DNA from: Gammaproteobacteria bacterium
GTDB lineage: Bacteria; Pseudomonadota; Gammaproteobacteria; Eutrophobiales; Eutrophobiaceae
NCBI GenBank assembly: GCA_038922795.1
Contig: JBCKWI010000003.1
Span: 5,118-69,117 of the forward strand
Direction: 5' to 3'
Length of the DNA: 64,000 nt
Positions 2,330-60,672 of this stretch are shown here, piece by piece. The stretch's first letter is position 1. Every line of letters starts with the position of its first letter. A program made the translations under genes and the position numbers. The notes below the pieces were generated by a model, which was given only the letters and a program-made list of their open reading frames with translations, did no database searches and was not told the origin of the DNA.

Positions 2330-4135
2330 ATGTTTGATTACCGGATAATGAAAATGGCAAAAAAAGAAAAAACATCAAAACAGAACCTCACGGTCAGTCT
2401 GGACAAGAATGATCTGGACGAAATATTCGAAGAAGTCGAAAAAAGTCAACTACGAAAAAAGAATAAAAAGAAAACCGAAAAACAGGAACCGTTGGAGAAA
2501 CAGCTTTGGAAAGCGGCGGGTAAACTGCGCAAGAACATTGACGCCGCCGAATACAAGCATATTGTGCTTGGCCTGATCTTTCTGAAATACATCTCCGACG
2601 CCTTCGAAGAATTATTCAACAAGCTGCAAGCGGGTAAAGGTGACTATGCCGGGGCCGACCCGGAAGACAAGGATGAGTACAAGGCCGAGAATGTCTTCTT
2701 CGTACCACCCACAGCGCGTTGGTCATTTCTGTTATCCAAAGCCAAACAACCTGAGATTGGCAAGTTTGTCGATGAGGCGATGGATGCCATTGAAAAGGAA
2801 AACGCCTCATTAAAAGGAGTGCTGCCAAAAGTCTTTGCACGGCAAAACCTCGATCCCGCCAGTTTGGGTGGATTAATCGATCTGGTCGGTAATATTGCGT
2901 TAGGTGATGCCAAGGCCAGAAGTGCCGATGTACTCGGCCATGTGTTTGAATATTTCCTCGGGGAATTTGCACTGGCTGAAGGCAAACAAGGCGGACAATT
3001 CTATACACCGCGCAGTATTGTTGAATTACTGGTGGAAATGCTGGGACCCTACAAAGGCCGGGTGTTCGATCCCTGTTGCGGCTCCGGCGGTATGTTCGTG
3101 CAATCGGAAAAATTCGTGGCCGAACATCAGGGCAAGATCAATGACATCTCCATCTACGGACAGGAAAGCAACCAGACCACATGGCGGCTGTGCAAAATGA
3201 ACCTTGCCATTCGTGGTCTTGACAGTTCACAGGTGAAATGGAACAACGAGGGATCATTTTTAAATGATGGTCACAAGGATTTGAAAGCCGATTTTGTCAT
3301 TGCCAATCCACCGTTTAATGACAGCGACTGGAGCGGTGAACTCCTGCGCACCGATGGCCGCTGGCAATATGGTGCGCCACCCACGGGCAATGCCAACTTT
3401 GCCTGGTTGCAACATTTTGTTTATCACCTCTCCCCCACCGGCCAGGCCGGTGTAGTGCTGGCAAAAGGGGCTTTAACCTCTAAAACCTCCGGCGAAGGTG
3501 AAATCAGAAGGCGTTTAATCGAAGAAGGCAACCTGATTGATTGCATTGTTAATCTCCCCGCCAAACTGTTTTTAAATACCCAGATCCCGGCAGCGTTGTG
3601 GTTCATGAGCCGTAATCGCAAAGGCACCTCTCCCGCCGGAAGAGGCGGGGGTGAGGGATTCCGTAACCGCAGCAATGAAATCCTCTTTATCGATGCCCGC
3701 AATATGGGTCATTTGATCAATCGCCGTACCCGTGAGCTTTCCCATGAAGATACCAAACACATTGCCAACACCTACCATACATGGAGAAACAACCACTCTC
3801 CCTCCAAAACGCATCGTCATTCCGGCCAAGCGAAGCGTGAGCCGGAATCCAGTAAAAATACCAACACACATCGTCATTCCGCACTTGATGCGGAATCCAG
3901 TCAATTAATCTATCAAGACATTCCCGGCTTCTGCGCTTCAGTCTCCCTGGATCGTGTAAAAGAACTGGACTACGTATTAACTCCAGGCCGTTATGTGGGG
4001 TTACCGGATAATGACGATGATTTTAATTTCAAGGAACGATTCACATCACTCAAAGCCGAGTTTGAACAGCAGTTAAAAGATGAAGCGAAACTCAATAAAA
4101 TTATTGCTGAGAATCTAGCGAGGGTGAAGGTGTGA
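2330..4135 (+). CDS. hsdM: type I restriction-modification system, DNA methyltransferase subunit M
   Basis: It has the HsdM N-terminal domain ([32 protein letters not shown]), the SAM motif ([11 protein letters not shown]) and the catalytic NPPF ([11 protein letters not shown]). The real start is probably ATG 2348 or 2354 (MKMAKK/MAKK). It carries an in-frame 123-nt palindromic repeat insertion near the 3' end. Confidence 0.92.
3813..3901. repeat. Two small palindromic units (catcgtcattccggc...gccggaatccagt and catcgtcattccgca...tgcggaatccagt) inserted in frame inside hsdM
   Basis: Direct reading. Tandem units have ATTCCGG..CCGGAAT / ATTCCGCA..TGCGGAAT stems. Other HsdM proteins run ...YHTWR...YxDIPGFC... 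without the about 41 aa [41 protein letters not shown]. Confidence 0.7.
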
Positions 4136-5268
4136 GTGGGTGGAGAGAATATAAACTTATAGAGATTACTGAGCCAGTAAAGGAAACATACTTACCAACT
4201 GCTTCAGAAGAACTAGATTACATTGGGCTAGAGCATATCGGACAAGAAAGTTTACGATTAATAGCTATAGGTAAATCATCAGATGTGACAAGTAATAAAT
4301 TTCTATTTAGAGAGAACGATGTTCTTTTTGGGAAACTTCGACCTTATTTTAGAAAAATAATTAAGGCAAAATATTTTGGTATATGCTCAACAGATATTTG
4401 GGTTTTCAGGGCAAAAAAAGGATTTTCACAAGATTTTTTATTTTATTTTCTTGCAAACTGGGATTTTGTTGATACTGCTAATGGCGGTGAAGGTGGATCT
4501 CGAATGCCCAGAGCAGATTGGAACTTCCTTAAATCTACATTATGGAATGTTCCAGATCATACTGAGCAAAAAGCCATCGCATCAGTCCTCAGCAGTCTGG
4601 ATGACAAAATCGACCTGCTTCACCGCCAGAATAAAACTCTCGAAGCCATGGCTGAAACCCTGTTCAGACAATGGTTCATCGAAGAAGCAAGAGAAGATTG
4701 GCAGGAAAAACCTCTAAGCAAAATTGCAAATTTTTTGAATGGTCTTGCTTGTCAAAAATATCCTCCAAAAAACGAAATTGATAAATTACCCGTATTAAAA
4801 ATAAAAGAACTAAGCAGTGGTATATCTGATTCATCTGATTGGGCAACAACTGACGTAAAACCTGAATATGTTATTGAGAATAGCGATGTGATTTTTGCGT
4901 GGTCAGCATCCCTTATGGTTAAGATTTGGGATGGAGATAAATGTATCTTGAACCAACATTTATTTAAAGTTAGCTCTACTGAATATCCAAAATGGTTTTA
5001 TTATTGGTGGTGCAAACATCATCTGGAAGAATTCATATCGATATCTGCGAGTCATGCAACAACTATGGGCCATATCAAGCGAGGTGACTTGGATGTGGCT
5101 ATGGTGCTGATTCCAAAGGAAAGCGAGTTCAAATCTATCAATTCACAAATGGAACCATTACTCGATAAGCAAATAGAAAACTCTAAACAAATTCAAATCC
5201 TCGAAAAACTCCGCGATACATTATTACCTAAACTCATGAGCGGCGAAATTAGAGTCAAGATAAATTAA
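4132..5268 (+). CDS. hsdS: type I R-M specificity subunit S
   Basis: Its ATG overlaps the hsdM stop (ATGA). Two AT-rich target-recognition domains flank a GC-richer conserved central region (...[37 protein letters not shown]...), and a C-terminal conserved helix ([17 protein letters not shown]) is present. Confidence 0.88.
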
Positions 5269-5269
5269 C

Positions 5270-6769
5270 ATGGACGGGATATTCATAAATAAAATCAATA
5301 TTAAAAATTACAAATGTTTTGTTGATCAGGATATCAATTTCAGCGTTCCTGACGGTAAAACACTTGGTAGCGGCCTGAACATTTTAATTGGCGAGAACGG
5401 AGTTGGTAAAACAGCTGTGCTTGAAGGATTCAACATGTTGACACAGACATATTTTACTCTTGAAAATCGATTGGATATTCGAGATTTCAACGATTTCAAA
5501 AAAGAAATTCAAATCACGGCCCAGACTGAAGAATTTAGGTGCAAGATGCCTTATCCGGGCAATTATTTTATTTCCAATGGCCTTGAGATAACAGCAAAAA
5601 ATAGAGACAGAAAAGCATCTGGGAAATTATTGTCCTCTTCATTCTCTACATCTTCTTCGTTCATGCCCACAACAGAGTATTACTTCAACTCAAAAGGTGA
5701 ACCATCAAAGAACCTGATTCCCCTTTATACAATGTATAAGGATGACACCATTGAGGGAGACGGAATAAACATTTTTTATTTTGATAAGAACAGAACAAGA
5801 CAATTGTCATCTGGCACTTATAAAACAACGTTTGAACGTATATGCGACGACTTGAATTGGAGATTTAATAAAGAATTAACTCCTGAATTAATAGATACAG
5901 TGCTTGAAAATATATCAGGCGAATATTTTAAAACTGTCAGAGAGAACGCCCAAAAAGGAATTGGACAAAAAATAGCTGATGAATTAGCTAGCTTTTTTAA
6001 TTCAGAATCATACAAAAACCTAAAAATAGAACTTCTAAATCTTTTACACCCTTACACAGATGCGTTTTTTGCAGTAAGAGAGGAATCTGACTTAAAGCAA
6101 ATAAAAACAAAAGATCTTGGTTCAGGAGTCGAGATGATCCTTACTCTTTTACTGCTTAAAAATATAGCAAGCCAATCAAAAGGCAGTATTATTTTCCTAA
6201 TTGATGAACCTGAATTGCATCTCCATCCAAAAGCACAAGATAAATTAATGGAGTTATTGTTGGATGAGTCGATTGATAAACAAATTATATTAAGTTCTCA
6301 TTCGCCTTACATTTTCAGGAATTGTCTTGATAAAGCTGGCTCTATCATAGTAATGAATAAAGCAGCTAATTTTTCTATAAATTTTCATTATGCTCAGAAA
6401 AATGAATGGGGGCTATTCCCTTGGAGTCCCTCTTGGGGAGAAATTAATTTCTTGGCATTGAATTTGCCAACAGTTGAATTTCATAATGAATTATACGGTA
6501 GGTTACAAGAAATATCGGGACAGAATAGAATAGAAAACTTTGATAAGTGGTTGAATGAAAAATTTGGAATCCCATTAATTTCTTCATGGATAAGACTTAA
6601 TAATGGCGTAGCTGGAAATACTGATACCGTATCTCTTCAAACATATATTAGGCATTCTATACATCATCCTGAAAATAATTTAAATAAACCATTTACAGTT
6701 GATGAATTATCTCAATCTATTCAGAAGATGATCCATGTCTTAAGAAAGCTCAATGACCAAAATCACTGA
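5270..6769 (+). CDS. ABC/OLD-like AAA ATPase (AAA_15/AAA_21-type) embedded in the hsd operon; putative anti-phage/Abi accessory protein
   Basis: Walker A is GENGVGKT and Walker B plus D-loop is IIFLIDEPELHLHPKAQ, with H-loop LSSHSP. It is AT-rich. It starts 1 nt after the hsdS stop and overlaps the hsdR start by 17 nt. No TOPRIM or HNH domain was recognised in the C-terminal about 150 aa. Confidence 0.7.
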   Translation: MDGIFINKINIKNYKCFVDQDINFSVPDGKTLGSGLNILIGENGVGKTAVLEGFNMLTQTYFTLENRLDIRDFNDFKKEIQITAQTEEFRCKMPYPGNYFISNGLEITAKNRDRKASGKLLSSSFSTSSSFMPTTEYYFNSKGEPSKNLIPLYTMYKDDTIEGDGINIFYFDKNRTRQLSSGTYKTTFERICDDLNWRFNKELTPELIDTVLENISGEYFKTVRENAQKGIGQKIADELASFFNSESYKNLKIELLNLLHPYTDAFFAVREESDLKQIKTKDLGSGVEMILTLLLLKNIASQSKGSIIFLIDEPELHLHPKAQDKLMELLLDESIDKQIILSSHSPYIFRNCLDKAGSIIVMNKAANFSINFHYAQKNEWGLFPWSPSWGEINFLALNLPTVEFHNELYGRLQEISGQNRIENFDKWLNEKFGIPLISSWIRLNNGVAGNTDTVSLQTYIRHSIHHPENNLNKPFTVDELSQSIQKMIHVLRKLNDQNH

Positions 6770-9700
6770 AAATACTATCGAAGACTTTGCCATCGAGTTA
6801 TTCGAAGCTCTCGGTTATGACTATGTGTATGCACCGGATATCGCGCCTGATGGTGATGAGCCGGAGCGCAAAATTTACGAAGACGTATTACTGATTGGCA
6901 GATTGCAGAACGCCATTCGCCGGATTAACCCTTCCATATCGGGTGATGCCCAACTAGAGGCATTAAAAGAAATTCAACGTATTCATTCCCCGGAATTATT
7001 AACCAACAATGAGACTTTTCATCGGCTTCTGACTGAAGGCGTGAATATCAGCTATCAGCAGGATGGCAACCAACGCGGCGATCTGGTGTGGCTGGTTGAT
7101 TTCAAAAATCCGGAAAACAATGAATTTTTGGTGGCGAATCAATTCACGGTCATTGAAAACGGCCAGAACAAACGCCCGGACATCATCCTGTTTGTGAATG
7201 GTATTCCTTTGGTGGTGATCGAGTTAAAGAATGCCGCCGATGAAAATACAACTATCCTTTCCGCCTTCAAACAATTGCAAACCTATAAGGAAACGATCTC
7301 CAGCCTGTTTACCTACAATGGCTTGATGGTGATTTCTGATGGGCTGGAAGCCAAGGCAGGTTCATTGTCTGCGGGCTTCAGCCGGTTTATGACCTGGAAA
7401 TCAGCCGATGGGAAGGCCGAAGCCTCGCCCTTGATCAGCCAACTGGAAACCCTAATCAAGGGCATGTTGAACAAGCACACCTTGCTGGATTTGATTCGTC
7501 ATTTTATCGTTTTTGAAAAGTCCAAAAAGGAAGATCTCAAAACCGGTGTCACCACCATTTCCACCGTCAAAAAGCTGGCTGCTTATCATCAATACTATGC
7601 CGTGAACCGTGCAGTAGAATCAACTTTGCGTGCCGCTGGTTATATTTGTGAAGATACTGGCGGAAAGAACATCATGGAGTCGCCGGAAAGTTATGGTTTA
7701 CCGGGGGTAAAAGCCCAACCCGCAGGCGACAAGAAAGGTGGTGTGGTCTGGCATACACAAGGCAGTGGCAAGTCTCTATCCATGGTGTTTTATACCGGCA
7801 AGATTGTATTGATGATGGATAACCCCACCGTGGTGATGATTACCGACCGTAATGATCTGGATGATCAGCTTTTCGATACCTTTGCCGCCTCCGCGCAATT
7901 ATTAAGACAGGAACCGAAACAGGTTGAAGATCGGAAACAACTCAAGGAATTATTAAAAGTGGCCTCCGGCGGCGTGATCTTTACCACCATCCAGAAATTC
8001 CAGCCTGAAGAAGGCAATATCTACGAAGAACTCTCTGCACGTAAAAACATAGTGGTTATCGCGGATGAAGCACACCGCACCCAATATGGTTTCAAGGCAA
8101 AGACCATCGACGAGAAAAATAAGCAGGGTGATGTGGTTGGCAAGAAGATTGTTTATGGTTTTGCCAAGTACATGCGCGATGCCCTGCCCAATGCGACTTA
8201 TTTAGGGTTTACCGGCACTCCGATTGAAAAAACGGATATCAACACGCCCGCCGTGTTCGGCAATTACATTGATATTTACGATATTGCCCAGGCGGTGGAA
8301 GACGGCGCCACGGTACGCATTTATTATGAAAGCCGGTTGGCCAAGGTCAATCTCAGTGAGGAAGGTAAAAAGCTGATCGCTACGCTGGATGAAGAACTGG
8401 ATCAGGATGAGCTCACCGAGACCCAGAAGGCCAAGTCGAAATGGACGCAACTTGAGGCATTGGTTGGCAGTGAAAACCGCATCAAAAAGATTGCTCAGGA
8501 TATCGTCACTCACTTTGAACAACGTCAGGCCGTGTTTGAAGGCAAAGTTATGATCGTCGCTATGTCGCGCAGGATTGCCGTGGATTTGTATGAAGCGATT
8601 ATCAAGCTGAAACCTGACTGGCATTCTGATGATTTGAGTAAAGGGAAAATCAAGGTAGTGATGACAGCGGCTTCATCTGATGGCCCGAAGATGGCCAAAC
8701 ATCACACCACCAAAGAGCAACGCAAGGCACTGGCCGAGCGCATGAAGGCCAATGATGATGAGTTAAAGCTGGTGATTGTGCGGGATATGTGGCTGACGGG
8801 GTTTGACGCGCCAAGTATGCACACGCTTTATATCGACAAACCCATGAAAGGACACAACCTGATGCAGGCGATTGCACGGGTCAACCGTGTTTACATAGAC
8901 AAACCCGGTGGGTTGGTTGTGGATTATTTAGGAATCGCGGCTGATCTTAAAGAGGCTTTGTCATTTTATTCCGATGCAGGTGGCAAGGGTGATCCAACTA
9001 TTCTTCAGGAACAGGCAGTGCAATTGATGCTGGAAAAACTGGAAGTGGTTGCAGGTATGTATCATGGTTTTCCTTATGAGGAATATTTTGAGGCAGATAC
9101 TTCCAGAAAGCTCTCGCTGATTCTTGCCGCAGAGGAACATATTCTAGGTATTGAAGATGGCAAGAAGCGTTATATCAATGAAGTCACTGCGTTGTCGCAG
9201 GCATTTGCAATTGCCATTCCCCATGCACAAGCCATGGACGTTAAGGATGAAGTGGCATTCTTTCAGGCTGTTAAAGCGCGATTGGTGAAGTTTGACAGTA
9301 CCGGATCAGGAAAAACAGATGAAGCGATAGAAACCACCATTCGCCAGGTGATTGATCAGGCATTGGTGTCTGAACAGGTCATTGATGTGTTTGATGCTGC
9401 CGGTATCAAAAAGCCGGACATTTCGATTCTTTCAGAAGAATTCCTGTTGGAATTGAAAGGAATGAAACACAAAAATATCGCGCTGGAGGTGTTAAAGAAA
9501 CTGCTCAATGATGAAATCAGGGCGCGGGCCAAGAAGAATCTGGTAAAGAGCAAATCCTTAATGGAAATGCTGGAAACCGCAATCAAAAAATACCATAACA
9601 AGATATTGACGGCTGCGGAAGTAATCAATGAGCTTATTATACTGAGCAAGGAAATTGTAAAGATGGACAGCGAAGCCGCGGCTCTGGGCCTGTCTGATTT

Positions 9701-9986
9701 TGAATATGCTTTTTATACTGCTGTTGCCGATAATGACAGCGCTAGAGAATTAATGGCGGTAGCCAAACTCAGGGAATTGGCGGTTGTGCTCACAGAAAGA
9801 GTCCGGCAAAACGCTTCAATTGACTGGACAATTAAAGAAAGCGTGAAGGCCAAACTGAAAGTAATTGTAAAGAGAACTCTACGGCAATACGGTTATCCGC
9901 CTGATATGCAAAAACTCGCGACTGAAACTGTACTAAAACAAGCGGAAATGATTGCGGATGAACTGGCACATACAGAATCAATCTAG
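6753..9986 (+). CDS. hsdR: type I restriction enzyme R subunit (helicase/endonuclease)
   Basis: 1077 aa. It has the HsdR N-terminal nuclease region (MTKITENTIEDFAIELFEALGYDY...), DEAD-box helicase motifs (VVWHTQGSGKS; VVIADEAHRTQ; LGFTGTPI) and a C-terminal HsdR domain. Confidence 0.93.
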   Translation: MTKITENTIEDFAIELFEALGYDYVYAPDIAPDGDEPERKIYEDVLLIGRLQNAIRRINPSISGDAQLEALKEIQRIHSPELLTNNETFHRLLTEGVNISYQQDGNQRGDLVWLVDFKNPENNEFLVANQFTVIENGQNKRPDIILFVNGIPLVVIELKNAADENTTILSAFKQLQTYKETISSLFTYNGLMVISDGLEAKAGSLSAGFSRFMTWKSADGKAEASPLISQLETLIKGMLNKHTLLDLIRHFIVFEKSKKEDLKTGVTTISTVKKLAAYHQYYAVNRAVESTLRAAGYICEDTGGKNIMESPESYGLPGVKAQPAGDKKGGVVWHTQGSGKSLSMVFYTGKIVLMMDNPTVVMITDRNDLDDQLFDTFAASAQLLRQEPKQVEDRKQLKELLKVASGGVIFTTIQKFQPEEGNIYEELSARKNIVVIADEAHRTQYGFKAKTIDEKNKQGDVVGKKIVYGFAKYMRDALPNATYLGFTGTPIEKTDINTPAVFGNYIDIYDIAQAVEDGATVRIYYESRLAKVNLSEEGKKLIATLDEELDQDELTETQKAKSKWTQLEALVGSENRIKKIAQDIVTHFEQRQAVFEGKVMIVAMSRRIAVDLYEAIIKLKPDWHSDDLSKGKIKVVMTAASSDGPKMAKHHTTKEQRKALAERMKANDDELKLVIVRDMWLTGFDAPSMHTLYIDKPMKGHNLMQAIARVNRVYIDKPGGLVVDYLGIAADLKEALSFYSDAGGKGDPTILQEQAVQLMLEKLEVVAGMYHGFPYEEYFEADTSRKLSLILAAEEHILGIEDGKKRYINEVTALSQAFAIAIPHAQAMDVKDEVAFFQAVKARLVKFDSTGSGKTDEAIETTIRQVIDQALVSEQVIDVFDAAGIKKPDISILSEEFLLELKGMKHKNIALEVLKKLLNDEIRARAKKNLVKSKSLMEMLETAIKKYHNKILTAAEVINELIILSKEIVKMDSEAAALGLSDFEYAFYTAVADNDSARELMAVAKLRELAVVLTERVRQNASIDWTIKESVKAKLKVIVKRTLRQYGYPPDMQKLATETVLKQAEMIADELAHTESI

Positions 9987-50403: not shown

Positions 50404-52092
50404 ATGGCAATTAACAAAAAACACAGGCACCTGAATGCACTCAAGCCTGGTCATAAAATACACTGGTACGAGATCAGTGATATTCTGGGGCTGGGTGGTT
50501 TCGGCATCACCTACCTTGCACACGACCTCAACCTGGATCATCAGGTGGCCATCAAGGAATATCTCCCGGTGGATCTTTCCACGCGCGACAATGCGGGCAA
50601 TGTACAACCTGTCTCGTCCGAACATGCTGATAGATATCTTTGGGGTCTCAGCCGCTTTCTTGACGAAGCACGCACCATCGGGCAATTTAAACACCTGAAT
50701 ATTGTCCGGGTCCGGAATGTATTTGAGGCAAACAATACTGCCTACATGGTGATGGATTATGAGTTGGGGGAAAGCCTGCAGGAGATTCTGAGCCGCCGCA
50801 AGACACTGAGCGAGGAAGATATTAAAAGTGTCATCCTGCCTATTATTGATGGTATGCGGCATGTCCACGCTGCCGGATTTATTCACCGGGATGTCAAGCC
50901 CGCAAATATCTTTATCCGTGTTGATGGTGATCCCGTGCTTCTTGATTTTGGTTCGGCCCGCAAATCCCTGGAAGATTCAAACAAATCACTGACCAGTATT
51001 TTTTCACGCGGCTATGCGCCGATTGAACAGTACAACACTTCGGAGGACACCCAGGGTCCATGGACCGATATTTATTCGCTGGGGGCCACACTGTACCGGG
51101 CCATAGCCGGAGTACCACCCACAGATGCTGTTGATCGAAGTGCTGCTATCAGTCATACCTCGAGAGATACCTATGTTCCTGCTGTCGTGATTGGCAAGGA
51201 CAAATATTCTCTGCCCCTGCTTGAGGCCATCGATCATGCACTGCAATTCAGACAACAGGAGAGACCATCATCCATATCAGACTGGAAACTGGAATTCAGT
51301 GACCCAAGGAAAGAAACTGCTCTGCCACCTGAACAATTTGATCTTGATACCACAGCAGAGAAGAAAACAGGTTTTCAATTGGCCAGGGAAGCAGCCGAAA
51401 AAGGGGATGTCATTGCCATATCCAATCTGGCTTTCATGTACGCAAAAGGCAGTGGGGTAGAAAAAGACGAAAAGCTGGCCATGCAGTGGTATAAAAATGC
51501 GGCGGAAAAAGGCCATCTCAATTCCCAGTATAACCTTGGTGTTATTTATGCCAAGGGCCGCGGGGTAACACAGGATTACACCGAATCATTCAGGTGGTAC
51601 AAAATGGCGGCAGAACAAGGTGATGTCTTTGCCCAATCAACAGTAGCGATGATGTTTGCCAAAGGGATCGGCACCGCTAAAAATGAAAAGGAGGCCGTGA
51701 ACTGGTATCACCGCGCTGCTATGCAGGATCATACCAATGCACAGTATATCCTCGCCAATATGTTTCTGAAGGGGCGTGGTGTCCCCCAGGATGAATTGGA
51801 AGCCTTTGAATGGTTTCAGAAGGCCGCTGAAAAAGATCACATTAATGCGCAGGTTACTCTGGGATATATGTATGGAAAAGGAAAAGGAACGAAGCGTAAT
51901 GATGTTGAAGCATTTAACTGGTATCTGAAAGCGGCGGAACAAGGGCATCCCAATGCACAATATAATCTTGGGGTCATTTATGCCAAGGGCAGAGGCATAA
52001 AACGTGATTTGGATGCGGCAAAAAAATGGTATCGTAAGGCGGCTGATCAGGGTGATGAAAATGCCCTCAAGTCGCTGGAGCGGCTTAATTAA
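50404..52092 (+). CDS. eukaryotic-type Ser/Thr protein kinase fused to C-terminal Sel1 (SLR) repeats
   Basis: Kinase motifs are Gly loop LGLGGFGITY, VAIK, HRDVKPANIF, DFGSA and APE-like YAPIEQ. At least 6 Sel1 repeats follow (A/GxxxLGxxYxxGxGVxxDxxxAxxWYxKAAEQG). Confidence 0.85.
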   Translation: MAINKKHRHLNALKPGHKIHWYEISDILGLGGFGITYLAHDLNLDHQVAIKEYLPVDLSTRDNAGNVQPVSSEHADRYLWGLSRFLDEARTIGQFKHLNIVRVRNVFEANNTAYMVMDYELGESLQEILSRRKTLSEEDIKSVILPIIDGMRHVHAAGFIHRDVKPANIFIRVDGDPVLLDFGSARKSLEDSNKSLTSIFSRGYAPIEQYNTSEDTQGPWTDIYSLGATLYRAIAGVPPTDAVDRSAAISHTSRDTYVPAVVIGKDKYSLPLLEAIDHALQFRQQERPSSISDWKLEFSDPRKETALPPEQFDLDTTAEKKTGFQLAREAAEKGDVIAISNLAFMYAKGSGVEKDEKLAMQWYKNAAEKGHLNSQYNLGVIYAKGRGVTQDYTESFRWYKMAAEQGDVFAQSTVAMMFAKGIGTAKNEKEAVNWYHRAAMQDHTNAQYILANMFLKGRGVPQDELEAFEWFQKAAEKDHINAQVTLGYMYGKGKGTKRNDVEAFNWYLKAAEQGHPNAQYNLGVIYAKGRGIKRDLDAAKKWYRKAADQGDENALKSLERLN

Positions 52093-55038: not shown

Positions 55039-55539
55039 CTAGCCATATCTGAAACCAAGAATTTCCAGTTCCTGATCACCGGCAGGTTTTTTCCAGACTA
55101 CAATATCTCCCGTTTGTTTACCGATCAGTTCGCGTGCCAACGGTGACACCCAACTGAGCAGACCCCGGTCAGGATCTGCCTCATCTTCACCGACTATTGT
55201 ATAGGAGTACTGTTGATCATTTTCATCCAGCAGATTCACCGTGGCGCCAAAACGGATATCAATTGCAGTCTGTGATGTAACCTCTACCGGAATGGCACAC
55301 TGGATACGTTTTTCCAGATAGCGCAGATCCGCTTCAATTTTTTTCAACCGGTTTTTGGAAGCGAGCTCATCTTCATTTAATTTCAGCTCCCGGTAATACT
55401 TTCTCAATACCTCAAGGTTGTCTTTTAACCTCTTGAGGCCTGCACTGGTAATATAATTAGGATACTCGCTCTGCGGCCGTTCAATGGCATCATCATCTGC
55501 CTGGTCACCATCCAGTTCTTTTACAAATGCACGGCTCAT
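55039..55539 (-). CDS. GreA/GreB-family transcription factor paralog (divergent, Rnk/GreB-like)
   Basis: The C-terminal FKBP-like Gre domain is present (NLLDENDQQYSYTIVGEDEADPDRGLLSWVSPLARELIGKQTGDIVV), as is an N-terminal coiled coil. The start is taken at MSRAFVKELDG, because the upstream extension lies in the repeat cluster. Confidence 0.7.
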   Translation of the reverse strand: MSRAFVKELDGDQADDDAIERPQSEYPNYITSAGLKRLKDNLEVLRKYYRELKLNEDELASKNRLKKIEADLRYLEKRIQCAIPVEVTSQTAIDIRFGATVNLLDENDQQYSYTIVGEDEADPDRGLLSWVSPLARELIGKQTGDIVVWKKPAGDQELEILGFRYG

Positions 55540-55609
55540 AAAATGATTCCTCTGAATATTATTAGAACCTGTCTCAAAATTAGTTTCCCGCTCTTTTGAC
55601 GGAAGCAAT

Positions 55610-55750
55610 AACCCACTGCGCCTTCCCCCTGGCAGGGGGAACGACTCCATGGATGGAGTCGGTAGAGCAACGCAGGACGCCTACAGGGAGCGTGATGAAC
55701 TTGAACTCTACCTGAGGTTCCGGGCCTGTGCAGGAGATAAAGTCTCACGC
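55610..55750. repeat. family B palindromic repeat cluster flanking the IS remnant (left side)
   Basis: Units ccccctggcagggggaacgactccatggatggagtcggtagagcaacgcaggacgcctacagggagcg are read directly. Confidence 0.75.
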
Positions 55751-55810
55751 TTCAATATTTCTCAACAGACTGAATGATATCCAAGTCCTTCCCCAGGGGA
55801 AAGAGGCTGA

Positions 55811-56825
55811 ATGAGCAAGGGGGGTCACGAGATGATGACAATAATTGGTATTGATGTAGGCAAGGCGAAACTGGACTGCCTGTGGTTAAAAGACCCGGCC
55901 ACTGGCAAAGTGAAGACCAAGGTCTTTGCCAACACGCCGGACGGCCGCCTGGCGTTAATGGGGTGGACTGAACAACAGACACCAGTAGCACTGAATGCGG
56001 TCCATTTTATGATGGGGGCGACCGGGGTCTATCATGAGGCCTTGGCCTATACGCTGTACCGGGCGGGGGCGAAGGTGTCCGTGGTGGATCCGGCACAGGG
56101 GCGGGATGATGCCAAGGGCCTGGGGTCACGCACCAGGACCGACAAGAAGGACAGCTGGGTACTGGCCCGCTTGGGTGCGACACAAGGGACCCGGTTATGG
56201 CAGCCTGAACCTGACGAGGTGCGTAAGCTTGCGCCTCCGCGCCCGCATTGAGGCGGTAGAACAGGCTATTCGGCGCGAGATGAATCGTTTGGAGAAAGCG
56301 GCGATCGCACCGGTGTCCGAAGAGATATTAACCTCGATTCATACGGTTCTGGAACAACTTGAAAAAGAGAAAAAACGGCTGGAAGGGTTAATCAACCGGC
56401 ACATTGATCAACACCCCGGCCTGAAACGTGATCAGCAATGACTGGAGGGCATCCCCGGGGCCGGGCCGGTGATTGCCCGCGACCTGATGGCCGTGATCCG
56501 CAGCCGGTCATTGACTTCGGCGTCGCAGTGTGCGGCCACCTTGGGACGGGTCCCGATCCAGCATGAATCCGGTTCTAGTGTGCGCGGCAGACCGCCTATG
56601 TCCAAAGCCGGGAGTGCGACGATACGGGCCAAATTATAGATGGCGGCAGTCGTGTCCATTCAGCACAACCCGGATATTAAACGGCCCTATCAACGCTTGC
56701 TGAAAAAAGGAAAAGTTAAAATGAGTGCACTGGGTGCAGCCATGCGCAAGCGGGTGCATATTTGTTTTGGTGTATTAAAACACCAGACACCCTGTCAAGC
56801 ACAAACCCTGTCAATGGATTTGTGA
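55811..56825 (+). pseudogene. IS110-family transposase, disrupted by at least 3 frameshifts
   Basis: The N-terminal DEDD domain is MMTIIGIDVGKAKLD...GATGVYHEALAYTLYRAGAKVSVVDPAQ. The continuation lies in other frames: 56034-56441 (...LEKEKKRLEGLINRHIDQHPGLK), 56440-56640 (LEGIPGAGPVIARDLMAVI...) and 56640-56825 (...YQRLLKKGKVKMSALGAAMRKRVHICFGVLKHQTP). Confidence 0.8.
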
Positions 56826-56829
56826 TAGA

Positions 56830-57200
56830 TGGAGGAAGATGGTATCTCCTGCATCCTTGTAGTCGTGTCCTCGGCTTTGGCCTCCTCGATCGCTGTTCGA
56901 AAACCTGTTCCTGACGTTTTCTCGGTCTCTGTTCCAGACTCGACTCTACCGATTCCTTCCATGGAATCGTACCGCCTACATTCCCTGTAGGCGTCCCGAC
57001 GCGATTCTACCTCCTCCATCCCTGGAGTCGTGCGTTGCTCTCGGTCTCCGCTCCCGGCTCGACTCTACCGATTACATCCTTGTAATCGTACCGCCTATGT
57101 CCCTATAGGCGTCTCGCGACTTTTCCCACTTCCTGTGGGTCGCCTACGCCAGAATGACAGCATGTAGAAACTTGTAACTTAATCAGAACATCTTTAATTA
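56830..57200. repeat. family B palindromic repeat cluster with the terminal module agaatgacagcatgtagaaacttgtaacttaatcagaac (right side of the IS remnant)
   Basis: Direct reading. It contains ctcggtctccgctcccggctcgactctaccgatta, the reverse complement of the unit at 10450 and 18750. Confidence 0.8.
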
Positions 57201-57632: not shown

Positions 57633-58160
57633 ATGAACAAGAAACACAGTCAGTTAAAAAGCATCGTAATCTCGATCCTTGCTGCAGTCCTTTATGTGAA
57701 TTATGCCATTGCCCATCCAGTCGACGAACATCGTCAACCGGACAAGGTGCAGATCATCCTGCTGGCCGATAACACACCACCTCCGGTCAATGATGATGGC
57801 ATGGTAACAATGGGTGGGTTGAGCGGGCCGAAGGAGAGTAAAGGCATCGCTTCGATAGATCCGATGGGTATAATTGATCTGGGTGCAGAATTTCCGGCCA
57901 TGAGTGGCCGCCAGTTACGCGCAAGAATATTCACCATTGAACCCGGCGGTATCGTCGGCATTCACACGCACGAACAACGACCGGGTTATGCCTTCATTAT
58001 CAGCGGCAGCATTGTGGAACATCGTAATGATAACCCGGAGCCGCTTGTTCGCACCGCCGGTGATATTGCTATAGAGAAAGACGGTGTCACCCACTGGTGG
58101 GAAAATACCTTCGAAGAACCGGTGAAAGCGCTGGTCGTGGATATCTTCACACCGGAATAG
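57633..58160 (+). CDS. secreted cupin-domain protein
   Basis: Signal peptide plus a cupin motif (GIHTHEQRPGYAFIISG...G). 175 aa. Confidence 0.7.
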   Translation: MNKKHSQLKSIVISILAAVLYVNYAIAHPVDEHRQPDKVQIILLADNTPPPVNDDGMVTMGGLSGPKESKGIASIDPMGIIDLGAEFPAMSGRQLRARIFTIEPGGIVGIHTHEQRPGYAFIISGSIVEHRNDNPEPLVRTAGDIAIEKDGVTHWWENTFEEPVKALVVDIFTPE

Positions 58161-58507: not shown

Positions 58508-58697
58508 AGATACCCTTAGAGATGAATATCCGGAAGAACTGATCAAATCAGGTGTCCGTGGAAAATACACAGAGAGCTACCGCAAAAGTACAAACATCGT
58601 TCTGATTGATCCGGATCTGTACAAACTATTCCCCGATTCGGAAGCCGTTAACCGTGCACTTCGCGAGTATGCTTCAACAAGACGAACGGCAACTTAA
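58494..58697 (+). CDS. brnA: BrnA-like (CopG/RHH) antitoxin
   Basis: The start overlaps the brnT 3' end. The C-terminal ...PDSEAVNRALREYAS resembles BrnA. Confidence 0.6.
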   Translation: MNSDKDTLRDEYPEELIKSGVRGKYTESYRKSTNIVLIDPDLYKLFPDSEAVNRALREYASTRRTAT

Positions 58698-58794
58698 TAT
58701 CGCCATCGAGAAAGCCGGTATCACCCACTGTTGGGAAAATACCTTCGATGAACCGGTGAAGGCGTTAGTAGTGGATATCTTCAAACCGGAGTAA
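58693..58794 (+). pseudogene. diverged duplicate of the last about 32 codons of the cupin gene
   Basis: IAIEKAGITHCWENTFDEPVKALVVDIFKPE* versus the cupin C-terminus IAIEKDGVTHWWENTFEEPVKALVVDIFTPE*. About 85% nt identity with 58063-58160. Confidence 0.6.
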
Positions 58795-58850
58795 CCAGAG
58801 TCAATTGGTCTTGATTCTTTTATTTTGTTTGATCAAAGAGGTAGATTTAC

Positions 58851-60056
58851 ATGTCTGAAAGCTGGGCAGAAAGGCAAAGACACACGAACCGTTTAGCTAG
58901 GCGTCTTGCTGATTATTTGTTTTCGAGACATAAAATTACTGCTCGTCAGATTTACGGATTATCAAAAATTGCTTGGATAACGAATAGTTATGAAGGAGAA
59001 GCAGCAGCATATATTGCTAGCACAAAAATACCCGCTTTAGGTGATGTGTTCGGAAAAGATTTTACAAACAAATCGTTGGAGGAAGTAGCTAGCATAATTG
59101 CTTCAGAAACAGATGATGAATCTCTGATTGATTTGATAAAAGGTCATTCTGGTTTTACGAATTTTTACAAGGCATACAGAAATAGCGTCTTTGCTTGGAT
59201 TGAGAATAATCATTCAGTGCTATTACCTTTATATAAAGCTGCATTTAGTTCTGAGAGCGATGAAGCAAGATTAAAAATAGTTTCAACTATAGCCAAATTA
59301 CCAGGTATTCCAAAGGCTAATCATCCTGAGCAACAAATGAGGCCAGAATACTTTCTAACACCAGCATTTTTTATGCTTGACCCTGAAATTCGTTTCCCAC
59401 TTATAAACGGGAACGAATGGGTACACAATCTTCTCAGCGATCTGAACGTGGCGGATTCAGATCTTATCTCACAATATAAAGCAATGGTGCAATTGTATGG
59501 AAATGGAGGAATTACAGATGCAGCAGATCTCGATCAAGCGGGAAGAGATATGCCAGATTTCTTAAATACAAATGAACGAACGGCAACAAAAGGACTCCTT
59601 GAGAAAAAGAACTCTACAGAAAATGGAGCACTTCCATTAAAGGATGAAGCAGACGTTGAGGCCATAAGGGAAGCCGGAACAGTAACTCATCGGCGAATAC
59701 ATAATCATCTCACTAATAATTTAAAGAAATCACTCAAAAAATATACTCTCCTAGAGGGCAATAATCATTCTTGCATGTTTGATGTATTGGTGAAGCAATA
59801 CGATAATAATAGAAATGATTTGCTAATTGAGGTAAAAAGTTCTATCGATTCCCCTCAGATTAGAATGGCTGTAGGTCAGCTATTTGACTATTGGTTTTCC
59901 TTGAAAGGAGACGAAGAACCCCATATGGCTGTGTTATTACCTAATCGGCCAAGCAAAGATGTTGCAGACTTTCTTAAATGGATGGATATTGGATTAATGT
60001 GGTTTGATAACTATCAACTTTGTACGGATGATAATTGGCTTAAACATCTTGCTTGA
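58851..60056 (+). CDS. hypothetical protein with a C-terminal RecB-type PD-(D/E)xK nuclease motif set; candidate single-gene defence nuclease
   Basis: AT-rich 401-aa ORF. The C-terminus reads ...HSCMFDVLV(K)...NDLLIEVKSS...VGQLFDYW, which fits D / ExK / QxxxY. The N-terminal about 280 aa is unrecognised. Confidence 0.55.
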   Translation: MSESWAERQRHTNRLARRLADYLFSRHKITARQIYGLSKIAWITNSYEGEAAAYIASTKIPALGDVFGKDFTNKSLEEVASIIASETDDESLIDLIKGHSGFTNFYKAYRNSVFAWIENNHSVLLPLYKAAFSSESDEARLKIVSTIAKLPGIPKANHPEQQMRPEYFLTPAFFMLDPEIRFPLINGNEWVHNLLSDLNVADSDLISQYKAMVQLYGNGGITDAADLDQAGRDMPDFLNTNERTATKGLLEKKNSTENGALPLKDEADVEAIREAGTVTHRRIHNHLTNNLKKSLKKYTLLEGNNHSCMFDVLVKQYDNNRNDLLIEVKSSIDSPQIRMAVGQLFDYWFSLKGDEEPHMAVLLPNRPSKDVADFLKWMDIGLMWFDNYQLCTDDNWLKHLA

Positions 60057-60546
60057 ATTTATATTCAATCTCTATCACGAAATAACGACTCACCTGTCCT
60101 TCAGCTTTTACAACAATTTCATCTTTCCGTGATTTGCCCAATAGCGCTTTACTCATCGGCGAATCAATACTGATGTAATTCCTGTCCGGATCAATTTCAT
60201 CTGCTCCGACAATACGATAAGTGTTCTCTACACCTTCTTCGTTTTCGAGGGTAACGATGGCGCCGAAATACACTCGGCTGGTATCGCCAACTTCGGAAAC
60301 AATCTTTAACTTCGGCATCCTCTGTTGCAAATAACGAATACGCCTGTCGATCTCGCGCAATTCTTTTTTGCGGTAGATGTATTCGGCATTCTCGGATCGA
60401 TCGCCTTCCGCTGCGGCTGCTGTCAAAGCTTTGGTCACATCTCTGCGTCGAACCCACAGACCACTCAGTTCATTTTCCAGGTGTTGATAACCTTCAGGAG
60501 TTATGTAGGGTGATGAAGCAGTTGGAGGTGGACGCCAGCGTGTCAT
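60040..60546 (-). CDS. greB: transcription elongation factor GreB
   Basis: ITPEGYQHLENEL...GDRSENAEYIYRKKELREIDRRIRYLQQRM matches GreB closely. Start taken at MTRWRPP (ATG 60546). Confidence 0.85.
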   Translation of the reverse strand: MTRWRPPPTASSPYITPEGYQHLENELSGLWVRRRDVTKALTAAAAEGDRSENAEYIYRKKELREIDRRIRYLQQRMPKLKIVSEVGDTSRVYFGAIVTLENEEGVENTYRIVGADEIDPDRNYISIDSPMSKALLGKSRKDEIVVKAEGQVSRYFVIEIEYKFKQDV

Positions 60547-60582
60547 ACAAATATTAAAGAGATACAAGATAAATTAAATGTG

Positions 60583-60648
60583 TCATTTCGAGCGAAGCGA
60601 GAAATCTGAAGTTAAAACCATGAGATTTCTCGCTTCGCTCGAAATGAC
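60583..60648. repeat. perfect long-arm inverted repeat (tgtcatttcgagcgaagcgagaaatct ... agatttctcgcttcgctcgaaatgaca), family C; probable bidirectional terminator / MITE-like element
   Basis: Direct reading. Arms are about 27 nt and the loop about 12 nt. Confidence 0.85.
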
Positions 60649-60672
60649 AAATCACTACCCTGAAGAGTTTAC

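What the first reader, a model, noticed from the sequence alone, without database searches (positions are those of the whole stretch)
58851..60056. AT-rich 401-aa protein with a RecB-type PD-(D/E)xK nuclease C-terminus: candidate single-gene defence nuclease
The C-terminal 90 aa carry D (FDVLV), ExK (LLIEVK) and QxxxY (GQLFDY) in the order and spacing of RecB/Cas4-like nucleases. The N-terminal about 280 aa has no recognisable domain.

The gene has the lowest GC in the window and sits in an island with an IS remnant, two toxin-antitoxin modules and Gre-factor paralogs. This architecture, a variable N-domain plus C-terminal PD-(D/E)xK, is reminiscent of Shedu (DUF4263)-type and other single-gene anti-phage nucleases.
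Basis: partly seen in the sequence, partly recalled or inferred. Interest (0 to 1): 0.65.

Follow-up and report, generated by a model that had tools for sequence, protein, structure and literature searches.

The report
Stand-alone nuclease from an integron cassette
This gene encodes an uncharacterised two-part enzyme, an unrecognised helical domain joined to a DNA-cutting domain, that travels between bacteria as a one-gene integron cassette and most likely acts as a restriction-type defence against foreign DNA, though no experiment has yet shown this.

Summary
The 401-aa ORF and its D311 / E327-x-K329 / Q343-xxx-Y347 motifs are real, and they stay invariant (K329 in at least 90%) across 84 homologs down to 25% identity. 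"Lowest GC in the window" is wrong: a type I R-M operon at 2.3-10 kb is lower.

The protein belongs to a large unnamed family (1,302 representative clusters) with no Pfam, NCBIfam or PADLOC model. Structure prediction gives two domains:
- A confident all-helical N-domain with no PDB relative (best Foldseek E = 1.3).
- A C-terminal alpha-beta-beta-beta-alpha-beta PD-(D/E)xK domain, remotely homologous to NOV_C/DUF3883 (hhalign 82%, E = 1e-5). It is not Shedu/DUF4263.

The C-module also occurs behind at least seven unrelated N-termini, including an McrA-type reader. One relative carries a phosphorothioate-DNA-binding domain.

No neighbour is conserved. In at least ten loci the gene is the only ORF of an integron cassette with an attC site beginning at its stop codon. 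Other loci place it beside Gabija, Lamassu, Kiwa/type I R-M or GmrSD genes. The window copy has lost its attC and last three codons.

Best reading: a stand-alone restriction-like defence endonuclease, probably modification-dependent (type IV-like). Nuclease fold and modularity are shown; defence function and target are inferred.

The parts
58836..58841 (+). Ribosome-binding site AAGAGG, 9 nt before the ATG
   Evidence: Read directly from the sequence
58851..60056 (+). Complete gene, 401 codons plus a TGA stop. GC 0.375, GC3 0.28
   Evidence: ORF list; composition; 365 homologs at E<=1e-3, the best 120 near full length
58851..59561 (+). N-terminal domain, aa 1-237: compact, 12 helices. W42, G101, W116, P171, P183 and D228 are invariant. 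No known family and no solved structural relative. Proposed specificity or sensor domain.
   Evidence: AF2 domain model pLDDT 92.7, pTM 0.89; Foldseek PDB best E 1.3, prob <=0.12; conservation; no Pfam/NCBIfam/PADLOC hit
59562..59645 (+). Linker, aa 238-265, predicted disordered (pLDDT <50 at 253-263), ending in the start of the conserved motif L-P-L-K-D-E-x-D (aa 261-268). The motif travels with the C-module in every domain-swapped relative.
   Evidence: pLDDT profile; alignment A1; variant sequences
59646..60053 (+). C-terminal PD-(D/E)xK nuclease domain, aa 266-401: alpha-alpha-beta-beta-beta-alpha-beta-alpha-beta-beta, a divergent NOV_C/DUF3883-like domain
   Evidence: DSSP of the AF2 model; Foldseek local hits to AF1548, AF2093, bunyavirus endonucleases, Card1 and Cap4; recurrent sub-threshold hits to PD-(D/E)xK families; hhalign to NOV_C proteins Prob 81.8, E 1.1e-5
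59700..59702 (+). His284 codon: invariant residue on the helix before the core. It aligns with the invariant Glu of NOV_C helix alpha1.
59781..59783 (+). Asp311 codon (FDVLV): metal-binding Asp at the start of strand beta2
   Evidence: Invariant in 84 sequences; aligns with the GYD Asp of NOV_C
59829..59837 (+). Glu327-Val-Lys329 codons (LLIEVK): the (D/E)xK motif on strand beta3
   Evidence: E327 invariant and K329 kept in >=90%; aligns with EVK of NOV_C
59877..59891 (+). Gln343-x-x-x-Tyr347 codons (GQLFDY) on the helix after beta3: a RecB-family-type QxxxY motif
   Evidence: Both residues invariant; helix 334-352 in the model
60051..60056 (+). Rearrangement junction. The window copy diverges from its cassette-borne relative right after codon 401, losing the last three codons and the attC site. 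The TGA stop comes from flanking DNA, and the gene overlaps the convergent GreB-like gene (60040..60567, minus strand) by 17 bp.
   Evidence: Window sequence against L046; ORF coordinates

Best explanation
The gene encodes a stand-alone, restriction-like DNA endonuclease that began as a one-gene integron cassette.

Proposed mechanism:
1. The conserved helical N-domain (aa 1-237) acts as the specificity or sensing module.
2. A flexible linker with a conserved LPLKDExD motif joins it to the C-terminal domain.
3. The C-terminal NOV_C-like PD-(D/E)xK domain (His284, Asp311, Glu327-x-Lys329, Gln343-xxx-Tyr347) binds divalent metal and cuts DNA.

The gene has no partner methyltransferase, antitoxin or other conserved neighbour. 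The same nuclease module is found fused to McrA-type and phosphorothioate-DNA readers. So the most likely mode is type IV-like: the enzyme spares host DNA and cleaves foreign (phage or other mobile-element) DNA that carries a modification or feature recognised by the N-domain.

Shown: the ORF, the family, the fold, the invariant catalytic residues, the modular domain swaps, the cassette structure and the varied, defence-rich neighbourhoods.

Inferred: nuclease activity, the defence role and the modification dependence.

My sub-probabilities: active PD-(D/E)xK nuclease about 0.85; anti-phage or anti-mobile-element defence about 0.6; specifically modification-dependent about 0.35.
For: **Catalytic core.** D311, E327, Q343 and Y347 are invariant and K329 is kept in >=90% of 84 homologs down to 25% identity. 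The AF2 model (pLDDT 86.6) has alpha-beta-beta-beta-alpha-beta topology with these residues on beta2, beta3 and the following helix.

**Fold.** The best Foldseek local hits are PD-(D/E)xK nucleases, with probabilities up to 0.99-1.0.

**Nearest family.** Sub-threshold Pfam hits recur to NOV_C (16/84), XisH (12/84), SfsA, Exo5, PDDEXK_10 and TnsA_N. PMC3424549 assigns DUF3883, XisH and TnsA to the PD-(D/E)xK superfamily; the clan placement of the other three rests on my own knowledge. hhalign against genuine NOV_C proteins gives Prob 81.8, E 1.1e-5, with the catalytic residues in register.

**Domain swaps.**
- The N-domain of P0260 is found either with this C-module or with a Pfam-recognised NOV_C domain.
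- The N-domain of P0240 is shared with HNH proteins and with proteins JGI names McrA.
- P0182 adds a domain matching NCBIfam 'phosphorothioated DNA-binding restriction endonuclease' (E 4.5e-8), with a weak match to PDB 7CC9.
- At least seven mutually unrelated N-termini carry the module.

**Self-sufficiency and mobility.** No neighbour is conserved across 31 loci. The gene is the sole ORF of attC-bounded cassettes in Vibrio, Microbulbifer, Thalassomonas, Aromatoleum, Gilvimarinus, Aliikangiella, Nitrosomonas, two MAGs and the closest long-contig relative. Chromosomal integron cassettes are documented reservoirs of compact defence genes (bioRxiv 10.1101/2024.07.02.601686 and 10.64898/2026.03.17.712381).

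**Neighbourhoods.** GmrSD_N plus Dam; type I R-M, KwaA and a NucS-like gene; LmuB, an mREase_IV-like nuclease and a mad3/AriA-like ATPase; Gabija; a reverse transcriptase plus a TnsD remnant; ThsB, REase_I and PDC candidates.

**Precedent.** NOV_C/DUF3883 is the catalytic domain of the stand-alone modification-dependent enzyme YenY4I and of McaZI-type fusions (PMC6765204), and of the anti-T4 protein HmaA (PMC11232893).

**Window copy.** GC3 of 0.28 against 0.60 for the neighbouring metA indicates recent acquisition.
Against: - No experiment exists for any member of the family.
- No PADLOC model hits the protein.
- The window protein's own N-domain has no detectable similarity to any known modification reader. 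It is also acidic (pI 5.4), which is unusual for a DNA-binding domain.
- The type IV links rest on three rare fusion variants, each a single 50%-identity cluster.
- Several loci are flanked by ordinary housekeeping genes.
- The defence enrichment was not measured against a background rate.
- The window copy lacks its last three codons, so its activity is assumed, not shown.
Confidence: 0.55

Rival explanations
1. A Shedu-like or abortive-infection-type effector. The N-domain holds the nuclease inactive until an infection cue arrives (a phage protein, free DNA ends or a replication intermediate). The nuclease then degrades DNA indiscriminately, possibly killing the host cell.
For: The architecture, a variable N-domain plus a constant PD-(D/E)xK C-domain, matches this kind of system. 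The gene is a single-gene cassette in defence-rich contexts. The N-domain is acidic and resembles no known DNA reader. The conserved linker motif could be regulatory. HmaA, which carries a NOV_C domain, is described as acting through an Abi-like strategy (PMC11232893).
Against: There is no DUF4263/Shedu hit in Pfam or PADLOC for any of 84 members. The N-domain is unusually conserved (about 60% identity across proteobacterial classes), unlike sensors locked in an arms race with phage proteins. The informative domain swaps point to DNA-modification readers.
Confidence: 0.2
2. A nuclease that serves the mobile element itself, for example by helping excise, move or stabilise cassettes or islands as XisH or TnsA do, rather than defending the host.
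For: There are sub-threshold hits to XisH (12/84) and TnsA_N. The gene is tightly tied to attC sites and lies near recombinases and transposases in Aromatoleum and near a TnsD remnant in Alteromonas.
Against: The gene is cargo of ordinary cassettes of different attC types, and also sits at non-integron sites without any constant element or recombinase partner. Integron recombination needs only IntI (established knowledge). The XisH hits are no stronger than hits to other PD-(D/E)xK families.
Confidence: 0.07
3. An orphan or decaying classical (type II-like) restriction endonuclease, or an otherwise inactive relic, kept only by hitch-hiking in cassette arrays.
For: One UniRef entry is labelled 'Restriction endonuclease'. 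No methyltransferase partner is present. The window copy has a rearranged 3' end.
Against: Strong purifying selection acts over the full length, with invariant catalytic residues across 1,302 clusters. An unprotected sequence-specific type II enzyme would be lethal, so a family that is consistently solitary argues against this mode.
Confidence: 0.06
4. A housekeeping DNA repair or recombination nuclease of the RecB/AddB/Exo5 type.
For: The QxxxY motif is typical of RecB-family nucleases (sequence). One member gives a weak Exo5 hit. Some loci are flanked by housekeeping genes.
Against: The distribution is patchy across phyla at high identity. The gene sits in cassettes and islands, has atypical GC, has no conserved repair-gene neighbours, and lacks any helicase or Fe-S module.
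Confidence: 0.03

Closest known systems
NOV_C / DUF3883 (PF13020) PD-(D/E)xK nuclease domains, as in the modification-dependent restriction enzyme YenY4I, McaZI-type DUF3427-DUF3883 fusions (PMC6765204) and the Snf2-NOV_C defence protein HmaA (PMC11232893)
   Same: The nuclease sits at the C-terminus behind a sensing or specificity domain. The core signature is the same ([GF][YF]D[LV]L ... [ED]L[LH][IV]EVK[GS][TS]). There is profile-profile homology (Prob 81.8, E 1.1e-5). One N-domain type is found with either module. Genes are stand-alone and often in defence islands.
   Different: The protein scores 12.5 bits against the Pfam cut-off of 22.1. In the hhalign alignment the alpha1 Glu of NOV_C corresponds to an invariant His. 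It has a QxxxY helix motif instead of the NOV_C T-x-N-E motif. It carries a conserved LPLKDExD linker. Its N-domain is unrelated to PUA, DUF3427 or Snf2.
Type IV (modification-dependent) restriction endonucleases such as McrA/ScoMcrA (reader domains plus HNH)
   Same: It is a single polypeptide with no methyltransferase partner and a reader-plus-nuclease design. Relatives of this family carry an McrA-type N-domain (P0240) or a phosphorothioate-DNA-binding-type domain (P0182).
   Different: The window protein's own N-domain matches no known reader. The catalytic domain is PD-(D/E)xK, not HNH. Modification dependence is untested.
Shedu (SduA, DUF4263)
   Same: It is a single-gene system with a variable N-terminal domain plus a C-terminal PD-(D/E)xK nuclease. 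Shedu is also among the defence systems found in chromosomal integrons (10.1101/2024.07.02.601686).
   Different: There is no DUF4263 or PADLOC Shedu hit in any of 84 members. The nuclease belongs to a different branch, nearer NOV_C.
Nuclease-type defence cassettes of Vibrio chromosomal integrons (Epona, Divona, Damona; 10.1101/2024.07.02.601686)
   Same: These are compact, cassette-borne anti-phage proteins that fuse a nuclease domain to another domain.
   Different: They are defined by Mrr_cat plus holin, DUF4365 plus Mrr-type nuclease plus crr6, and DUF6602/RmuC-like domains. None is detected here. Direct sequence comparison was not possible.
RecB/Cas4-family nucleases
   Same: The D ... 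ExK ...
   Different: There is no significant hit to PDDEXK_1, Cas_Cas4 or related models (one of 84 members hits PADLOC Cas4 at E 0.037). It has no four-cysteine Fe-S cluster and no helicase partner.

Membership tests
PD-(D/E)xK (restriction-endonuclease-like) superfamily | Core alpha-beta-beta-beta-alpha-beta fold | tested here: met
   The AF2 model (pLDDT 86.6) has helix 278-294, strands 299-301, 312-315 and 324-328, helix 334-352, and strand 359-363.
PD-(D/E)xK (restriction-endonuclease-like) superfamily | Conserved Asp at beta2 and (D/E)xK on beta3 | tested here: met
   D311 and E327 are invariant and K329 is kept in >=90% of 84 homologs down to 25% identity.
PD-(D/E)xK (restriction-endonuclease-like) superfamily | Significant structural similarity to solved members | tested here: inconclusive
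NOV_C / DUF3883 (PF13020) | Score above the Pfam gathering threshold (22.1 bits) | tested here: not met
   The window protein scores 12.5 bits, E 0.16. 16 of 84 members hit at E<1, best 0.005.
NOV_C / DUF3883 (PF13020) | Profile-level homology with catalytic residues in register | tested here: met
   hhalign of A2 against 11 Pfam-recognised NOV_C proteins gives Prob 81.8, E 1.1e-5 over 95 columns. D311 aligns with the GYD Asp, and E327/K329 align with EVK.
Shedu (SduA) | DUF4263 (PF14082) nuclease domain or a PADLOC Shedu model hit | tested here: not met
   No such hit for the window protein or any of 84 members.
Shedu (SduA) | Variable N-terminal domain on a constant C-terminal nuclease | tested here: met
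   At least seven mutually unrelated N-termini carry the C-module.
RecB/Cas4-like nucleases | QxxxY motif on the helix after beta3 | tested here: met
   Q343 and Y347 are invariant and lie on helix 334-352.
RecB/Cas4-like nucleases | Family model hit (PDDEXK_1 or Cas_Cas4) and, for Cas4, a four-Cys Fe-S cluster | tested here: not met
   No Pfam hit. One of 84 members hits PADLOC Cas4 at E 0.037. No conserved Cys quartet appears in the alignments.
Type IV (modification-dependent) restriction endonuclease | Stand-alone gene without a cognate methyltransferase | tested here: met
   No neighbour is conserved in 31 loci, and homologs are one-ORF cassettes.
Type IV (modification-dependent) restriction endonuclease | A recognised modification-reader domain (SRA/PUA/EVE, DUF3427, SBD, McrA-N, Mrr-N) | tested here: not met
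   The window N-domain has no family hit and no PDB structural relative. The feature is met only in rare relatives: P0182 and P0240.
Type IV (modification-dependent) restriction endonuclease | Cleavage that depends on DNA modification | not testable with these tools
   This requires biochemistry or phage and plasmid challenge.
Integron gene cassette | ORF followed by an attC site (inverse core at one end, GTTRRRY core at the other, imperfect hairpin) | tested here: not met
   The window copy has a TGA stop and no attC, and runs into the convergent GreB-like gene. Homologs meet the feature in at least ten loci: L001, L005, L008, L010, L012, L013, L023, L024, L029 and L046. Three sites were folded and give hairpins with z -1.9 to -2.6.
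Integron gene cassette | Integron integrase (intI) and attI at the head of the array | not tested
   The flanks fetched (up to 10 kb) were not searched for intI. Arrays can be far longer than that.
Type II toxin-antitoxin module | A conserved adjacent small partner gene | tested here: not met
   Clustering of neighbours found none: the largest neighbour cluster occurs in 5 of 31 loci, two of whose members carry LysR Pfam domains or are a LysR-sized ORF.

The most novel reading that the evidence does not exclude
The helical N-domain is a previously unseen kind of DNA-feature reader, for a base or backbone modification or for a DNA structure. The family would then be a new, widespread class of cassette-borne modification-dependent restriction enzyme. 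The conserved C-module with its LPLKDExD linker would be a plug-in effector that evolution has combined with many different sensors.
Probability: 0.3. Interest if true: 0.7.

Novelty: new variant of a known kind. Interest (0 to 1): 0.55.

Why it matters
If confirmed, this would add a widespread family (about 1,300 clusters at 50% identity, across Proteobacteria, Acidobacteriota, Bacteroidota and Chloroflexota) to the list of single-protein defence nucleases. It would also be a clear case of an integron cassette spreading a defence gene well beyond Vibrio.

The N-domain is modelled with very high confidence yet has no solved structural relative. It could therefore be a new DNA-recognition fold, and a modification-dependent nuclease with a new specificity would be useful for epigenetic mapping.

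The interchangeable sensor-plus-nuclease design also gives a practical handle: the other N-domains attached to the same module are candidate sensors in their own right.

Tried and rejected
**Searches that found nothing:**
- Direct family assignment failed. Pfam, NCBIfam, PADLOC and the PDB sequence searches (single sequence and profile) gave nothing significant.
- tblastn against 72,556 plasmids and 50,697 phage records, and a pattern scan of IMG/VR, found no relatives. A plasmid- or phage-borne origin is therefore not supported, although one Aromatoleum contig is titled as a plasmid.
- A look-up of the window's exact protein found no contig on record, and cluster look-ups gave no names, so the source organism stays unidentified.
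- A literature search by locus tags and 'NOV_C' returned only an unrelated acronym.

**Ideas considered and dropped:**
- Shedu, Cas4 and Mrr_cat membership: no hits.
- The N-domain as a helix-hairpin-helix glycosylase. I noticed LPGIPKAN resembles an HhH hairpin, but the model puts a beta-hairpin there, and the only glycosylase hit (MBOgg1, E 3, prob 0.09) is noise.
- A conserved operon partner: none found.
- Repeats or attC sites flanking the window gene: none found.

- The promoter and terminator scans were at background level.
Full report
**1. The observation**

An AAGAGG ribosome-binding site lies 9 nt upstream. The three motifs are present as FD311VLV, LLIE327VK329 and GQ343LFDY347.

The gene is AT-rich: GC 0.375 and GC3 0.28, against 0.479 for the window and a GC3 of 0.60 for the neighbouring metA. 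It is not the lowest-GC feature, however. A type I R-M operon at 2330-9986 (hsdM, hsdS, an embedded AAA_15/AAA_21 ATPase, hsdR) holds genes at 0.333 and 0.363.

The described surroundings are real:
- IS110 transposase fragments.
- A BrnT toxin gene whose ORF ends at 63 aa (matching positions 1-56 of the 77-position profile), followed by a small ORF with no Pfam hit.
- An HTH_37 gene and a cupin gene.
- Two GreA/GreB-family genes.
- A Phd/PIN pair.

**2. A large, unnamed, tightly conserved family**

No Pfam, NCBIfam (June 2026) or PADLOC model, and no PDB sequence, matches significantly. The only hint is NOV_C at E 0.16 over residues 301-333.

A word-indexed search found 365 homologs. The best 120 are nearly all 400-405 aa, cover 81-100% of the query (full length in most), share 53-77% identity, carry no Pfam domain apart from one longer protein (P0118), and are labelled 'hypothetical' in Vibrio, Alteromonas, Colwellia, Thalassomonas, Microbulbifer, Gilvimarinus, Pseudomonas and Aromatoleum. 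An exhaustive profile search found 1,302 representative clusters at E<=1e-3, of which 172 are at E<=1e-30.

Both halves of the protein are conserved. In 84 sequences down to 25% identity, the invariant residues are W42, G101, D228, H284, D311, E327, R338, G342, Q343, Y347 and P367, and K329 is kept in at least 90%.

**3. Structure**

AlphaFold2 with the family alignment gives mean pLDDT 86.6. The model has three parts:
- An all-helical N-domain (residues 1-237).
- A disordered linker (253-263).
- A C-domain with helix 278-294 (carrying H284), strands 299-301, 312-315 (D311 at its start) and 324-328 (E327, then K329), helix 334-352 (R338, Q343, Y347), and strand 359-363.

That is the alpha-beta-beta-beta-alpha-beta core of PD-(D/E)xK nucleases.

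Foldseek against the PDB finds nothing at E<=1e-3. The best local matches are nevertheless almost all PD-(D/E)xK enzymes: AF1548 (prob 0.99), AF2093, bunyavirus cap-snatching endonucleases, FokI, Card1, Cdn1, Cap4 and MUS81. Among predicted viral structures, the best matches are short proteins, the top two without names (best E 2.5e-3, TM 0.57 to the target), and several lower-ranked ones are labelled restriction endonuclease.

**4. Which nuclease family**

Scanning all 84 members against Pfam gives recurrent but sub-threshold hits: NOV_C (16 members, best E 0.005), XisH (12), the SfsA RE domain (3), and Exo5, PDDEXK_10 and TnsA_N (1 each). Steczkiewicz et al. 2012 (PMC3424549) place DUF3883, XisH and TnsA in the PD-(D/E)xK superfamily; the placement of the other three rests on my own knowledge of the Pfam clan. 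There is no hit to DUF4263/Shedu, Mrr_cat or Cas4 models.

A decisive link came from a domain-swapped relative. The N-terminus of P0260, which carries the window-type C-module, is homologous (E 1e-45 to 1e-24) to the N-termini of proteins of about 310 aa whose C-terminus is a Pfam-recognised NOV_C domain.

Profile-profile comparison of the family with those NOV_C proteins gives probability 81.8% and E 1.1e-5 over 95 columns. D311 aligns with the GYD aspartate and E327/K329 with EVK. In that alignment the invariant alpha1 glutamate of NOV_C corresponds to the family's invariant His284. This would make the site an 'H...D...ExK' variant, though this part of the alignment is the least certain.

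The C-domain is therefore a divergent relative of NOV_C. It is not a member by Pfam's threshold (12.5 bits against 22.1).

**5. The N-domain**

Modelled on its own with 35 diverse sequences, it is very confident (pLDDT 92.7, pTM 0.89; 12 helices). It has no relative among solved structures: best Foldseek E 1.3, probability <=0.12, TM <=0.27. It is acidic (pI 5.4). W42, G101, W116, P171, P183 and D228 are invariant.

**6. A modular effector**

The C-module runs from the LPLKDExD linker motif to the C-terminus. It occurs behind at least seven N-termini that are unrelated to the window type and to each other. None has a Pfam hit. Two are informative:
- The N-terminus of P0240 is shared with small HNH (PF01844) proteins and with proteins JGI names '5-methylcytosine-specific restriction protein A'.
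- P0182 places a domain matching NCBIfam 'phosphorothioated DNA-binding restriction endonuclease' (E 4.5e-8) in front of the complete two-domain protein. That domain also matches PDB 7CC9/7CCJ/7CCD weakly (E 0.009). Those entries are deposited only as 'HNHc domain-containing protein'; I recall them as the sulfur-binding domain of an McrA-type enzyme.

Published work shows DUF3883 serving as the catalytic domain of the stand-alone modification-dependent restriction enzyme YenY4I and of McaZI-type fusions (PMC6765204). It also shows that the NOV_C nickase activity of HmaA is essential for anti-T4 defence (PMC11232893).

**7. Genomic behaviour**

Neighbour clustering over 31 loci found no conserved partner. 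The largest neighbour cluster occurs in 5 loci; one member carries LysR Pfam domains.

In Vibrio diabolicus the gene is the only ORF of a 1,356-bp unit bounded by repeats of about 125 nt that begin TAACAAA and end GCGTTAG. The unit lies inside a long one-directional array with Phd/ParE, acetyltransferases and NUDIX genes.

The same layout recurs widely. The stop codon is embedded in AGCTAACAA, and 50-125 nt later the site ends in GCGTTA or ACGTTR. This is seen in Thalassomonas, Aromatoleum, Microbulbifer (attC on both sides), Gilvimarinus, Aliikangiella, Nitrosomonas and two MAGs, with degraded remnants in three more loci. The three sites I folded form long imperfect hairpins (z -1.9 to -2.6). 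The closest relative on a long contig (75% identity) is also flanked by attC sites on both sides.

The family is therefore a one-gene integron cassette that has also settled at secondary sites. Many of those sites are defence islands:
- GmrSD_N and Dam in P. putida.
- Type I R-M, KwaA and a NucS-like gene in OW818658.
- Lamassu LmuB, an mREase_IV-like nuclease and a mad3/AriA-like ATPase.
- Gabija.
- A reverse transcriptase with a metallo-beta-lactamase-fold gene beside a TnsD remnant in Alteromonas macleodii.
- ThsB, further type I REases and PDC candidates in the batch scan.

Other loci are flanked by housekeeping genes.

No relative was found in the plasmid, phage or IMG/VR collections. Chromosomal integrons are documented reservoirs of compact defence systems (10.1101/2024.07.02.601686; 10.64898/2026.03.17.712381). 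The nuclease cassettes named there are defined by other domains.

**8. The window copy**

It has no attC. Compared with its cassette-borne relative it diverges immediately after codon 401 (CATCTTGCT|TGA against CATCTTGCG|TACAAGAGCTAACAA). It thus lacks the last three, poorly conserved residues, and it overlaps the convergent GreB-like gene by 17 bp. Just upstream, an 87%-identical 97-nt copy of the cupin gene's 3' end brackets the BrnT toxin gene and the small ORF that follows it. The gene therefore sits in a rearranged, horizontally acquired patch. All catalytic and invariant residues are intact.

**9. Mechanism and rivals**

Best-supported reading: a stand-alone restriction-like endonuclease in which the N-domain gives specificity and the NOV_C-like domain cuts DNA. 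Three things favour a type IV-like, foreign-feature-dependent mode:
- There is no methyltransferase, antitoxin or other partner.
- The sensor-swapped relatives carry McrA-type and phosphorothioate-type readers.
- The N-domain is unusually well conserved, which suggests a chemically constant ligand rather than a fast-evolving phage protein. This last point is inference.

Rivals, with my confidence in each:
- A Shedu/Abi-like activated effector (0.2).
- A nuclease serving the mobile element (0.07).
- An orphan or decaying type II enzyme (0.06).
- A housekeeping repair nuclease (0.03).

Nuclease activity, the defence role and the target are all inferred; none has been tested.

**10. Novelty**

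The kind of system, a single-protein sensor plus PD-(D/E)xK defence nuclease, is known. This family is not part of any described one:
- Its catalytic domain fails NOV_C membership while being its remote homolog.
- Its N-domain has no known relative.
- No name or model exists for it in the libraries searched.

I rate it a new variant of a known kind, of moderate-to-good interest. The cassette origin and the possibly new reader fold are its most valuable aspects.

**Limits**
- Defence enrichment was not measured against a background rate.
- The source organism of the window was not identified.

Noticed in passing
window 2330-9986 (+): A type I R-M operon (HsdM, HsdS, HsdR) with an AAA_15/AAA_21 (AbiEii/OLD-like) ATPase gene inserted between hsdS and hsdR. 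The hsdS and ATPase genes are the lowest-GC stretch of the window (0.363 and 0.333). This is a second defence locus about 50 kb from the finding.
   Followed up: partly
window 58063-58159 and 58697-58793: A 97-nt direct repeat (87% identical): the 3' end of the cupin gene (57633-58160) is duplicated just upstream of the nuclease gene. It brackets the BrnT toxin gene, whose ORF stops at 63 aa, and the small ORF that follows it. This looks like an insertion or recombination scar.
   Followed up: partly
window 55039-55650 (-) and 60040-60567 (-): Two GreA/GreB-family paralogs lie within 5 kb, in a patch of toxin-antitoxin and IS genes. The first matches only the C-terminal Gre domain and has an atypical N-terminus. 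The second has both Gre domains and overlaps the nuclease gene's 3' end by 17 bp, convergently. Their role here is unexplained.
   Followed up: no
window 60578-60652: A near-perfect 30-nt inverted repeat (97% complementary, 15-nt loop) sits between the GreB-like gene and metA. It may be a REP-like element or a bidirectional terminator.
   Followed up: no
window 55634-57097: IS110-family transposase fragments in several frames lie between inverted repeats of about 34 nt (55634-55667 against 56944-56977 and 57063-57096), with a tandem 59-nt repeat at 56920/57039. This is a decayed insertion sequence.
   Followed up: partly
window 59631-59654 (aa 261-268) and homologs: The motif L-P-L-K-D-E-x-D lies in a linker predicted to be disordered. 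It is nearly invariant and accompanies the nuclease module in all domain-swapped relatives. Its function is unknown; it could be regulatory or an interaction element.
   Followed up: partly
L001 and L002 (Vibrio diabolicus CP063377, about 114 kb apart): A multi-cassette block that includes the nuclease cassette is present twice, with the same gene coordinates, in the same chromosome.
   Followed up: no
L024 5818-6340 and 11633-12154: A direct repeat of about 520 bp (95-96% identical, spacing about 5.8 kb) lies on either side of the segment that contains the nuclease cassette in a gammaproteobacterial MAG.
   Followed up: no
L024 11224-11318 and L029 (downstream of the gene): Nearly identical attC sites follow the gene in a gammaproteobacterial MAG and an alphaproteobacterial MAG, although each protein is only about 50% identical to the window protein. 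This suggests the whole cassette was transferred recently between classes.
   Followed up: no
window 50404-52092 (+): The 562-aa ORF reads like a Ser/Thr protein kinase domain (HRDVKPANIF) fused to repeated Sel1-like motifs (AQYNLGVIYAKGRGV). I judged this from the translation only and did not check it with a family search.
   Followed up: no
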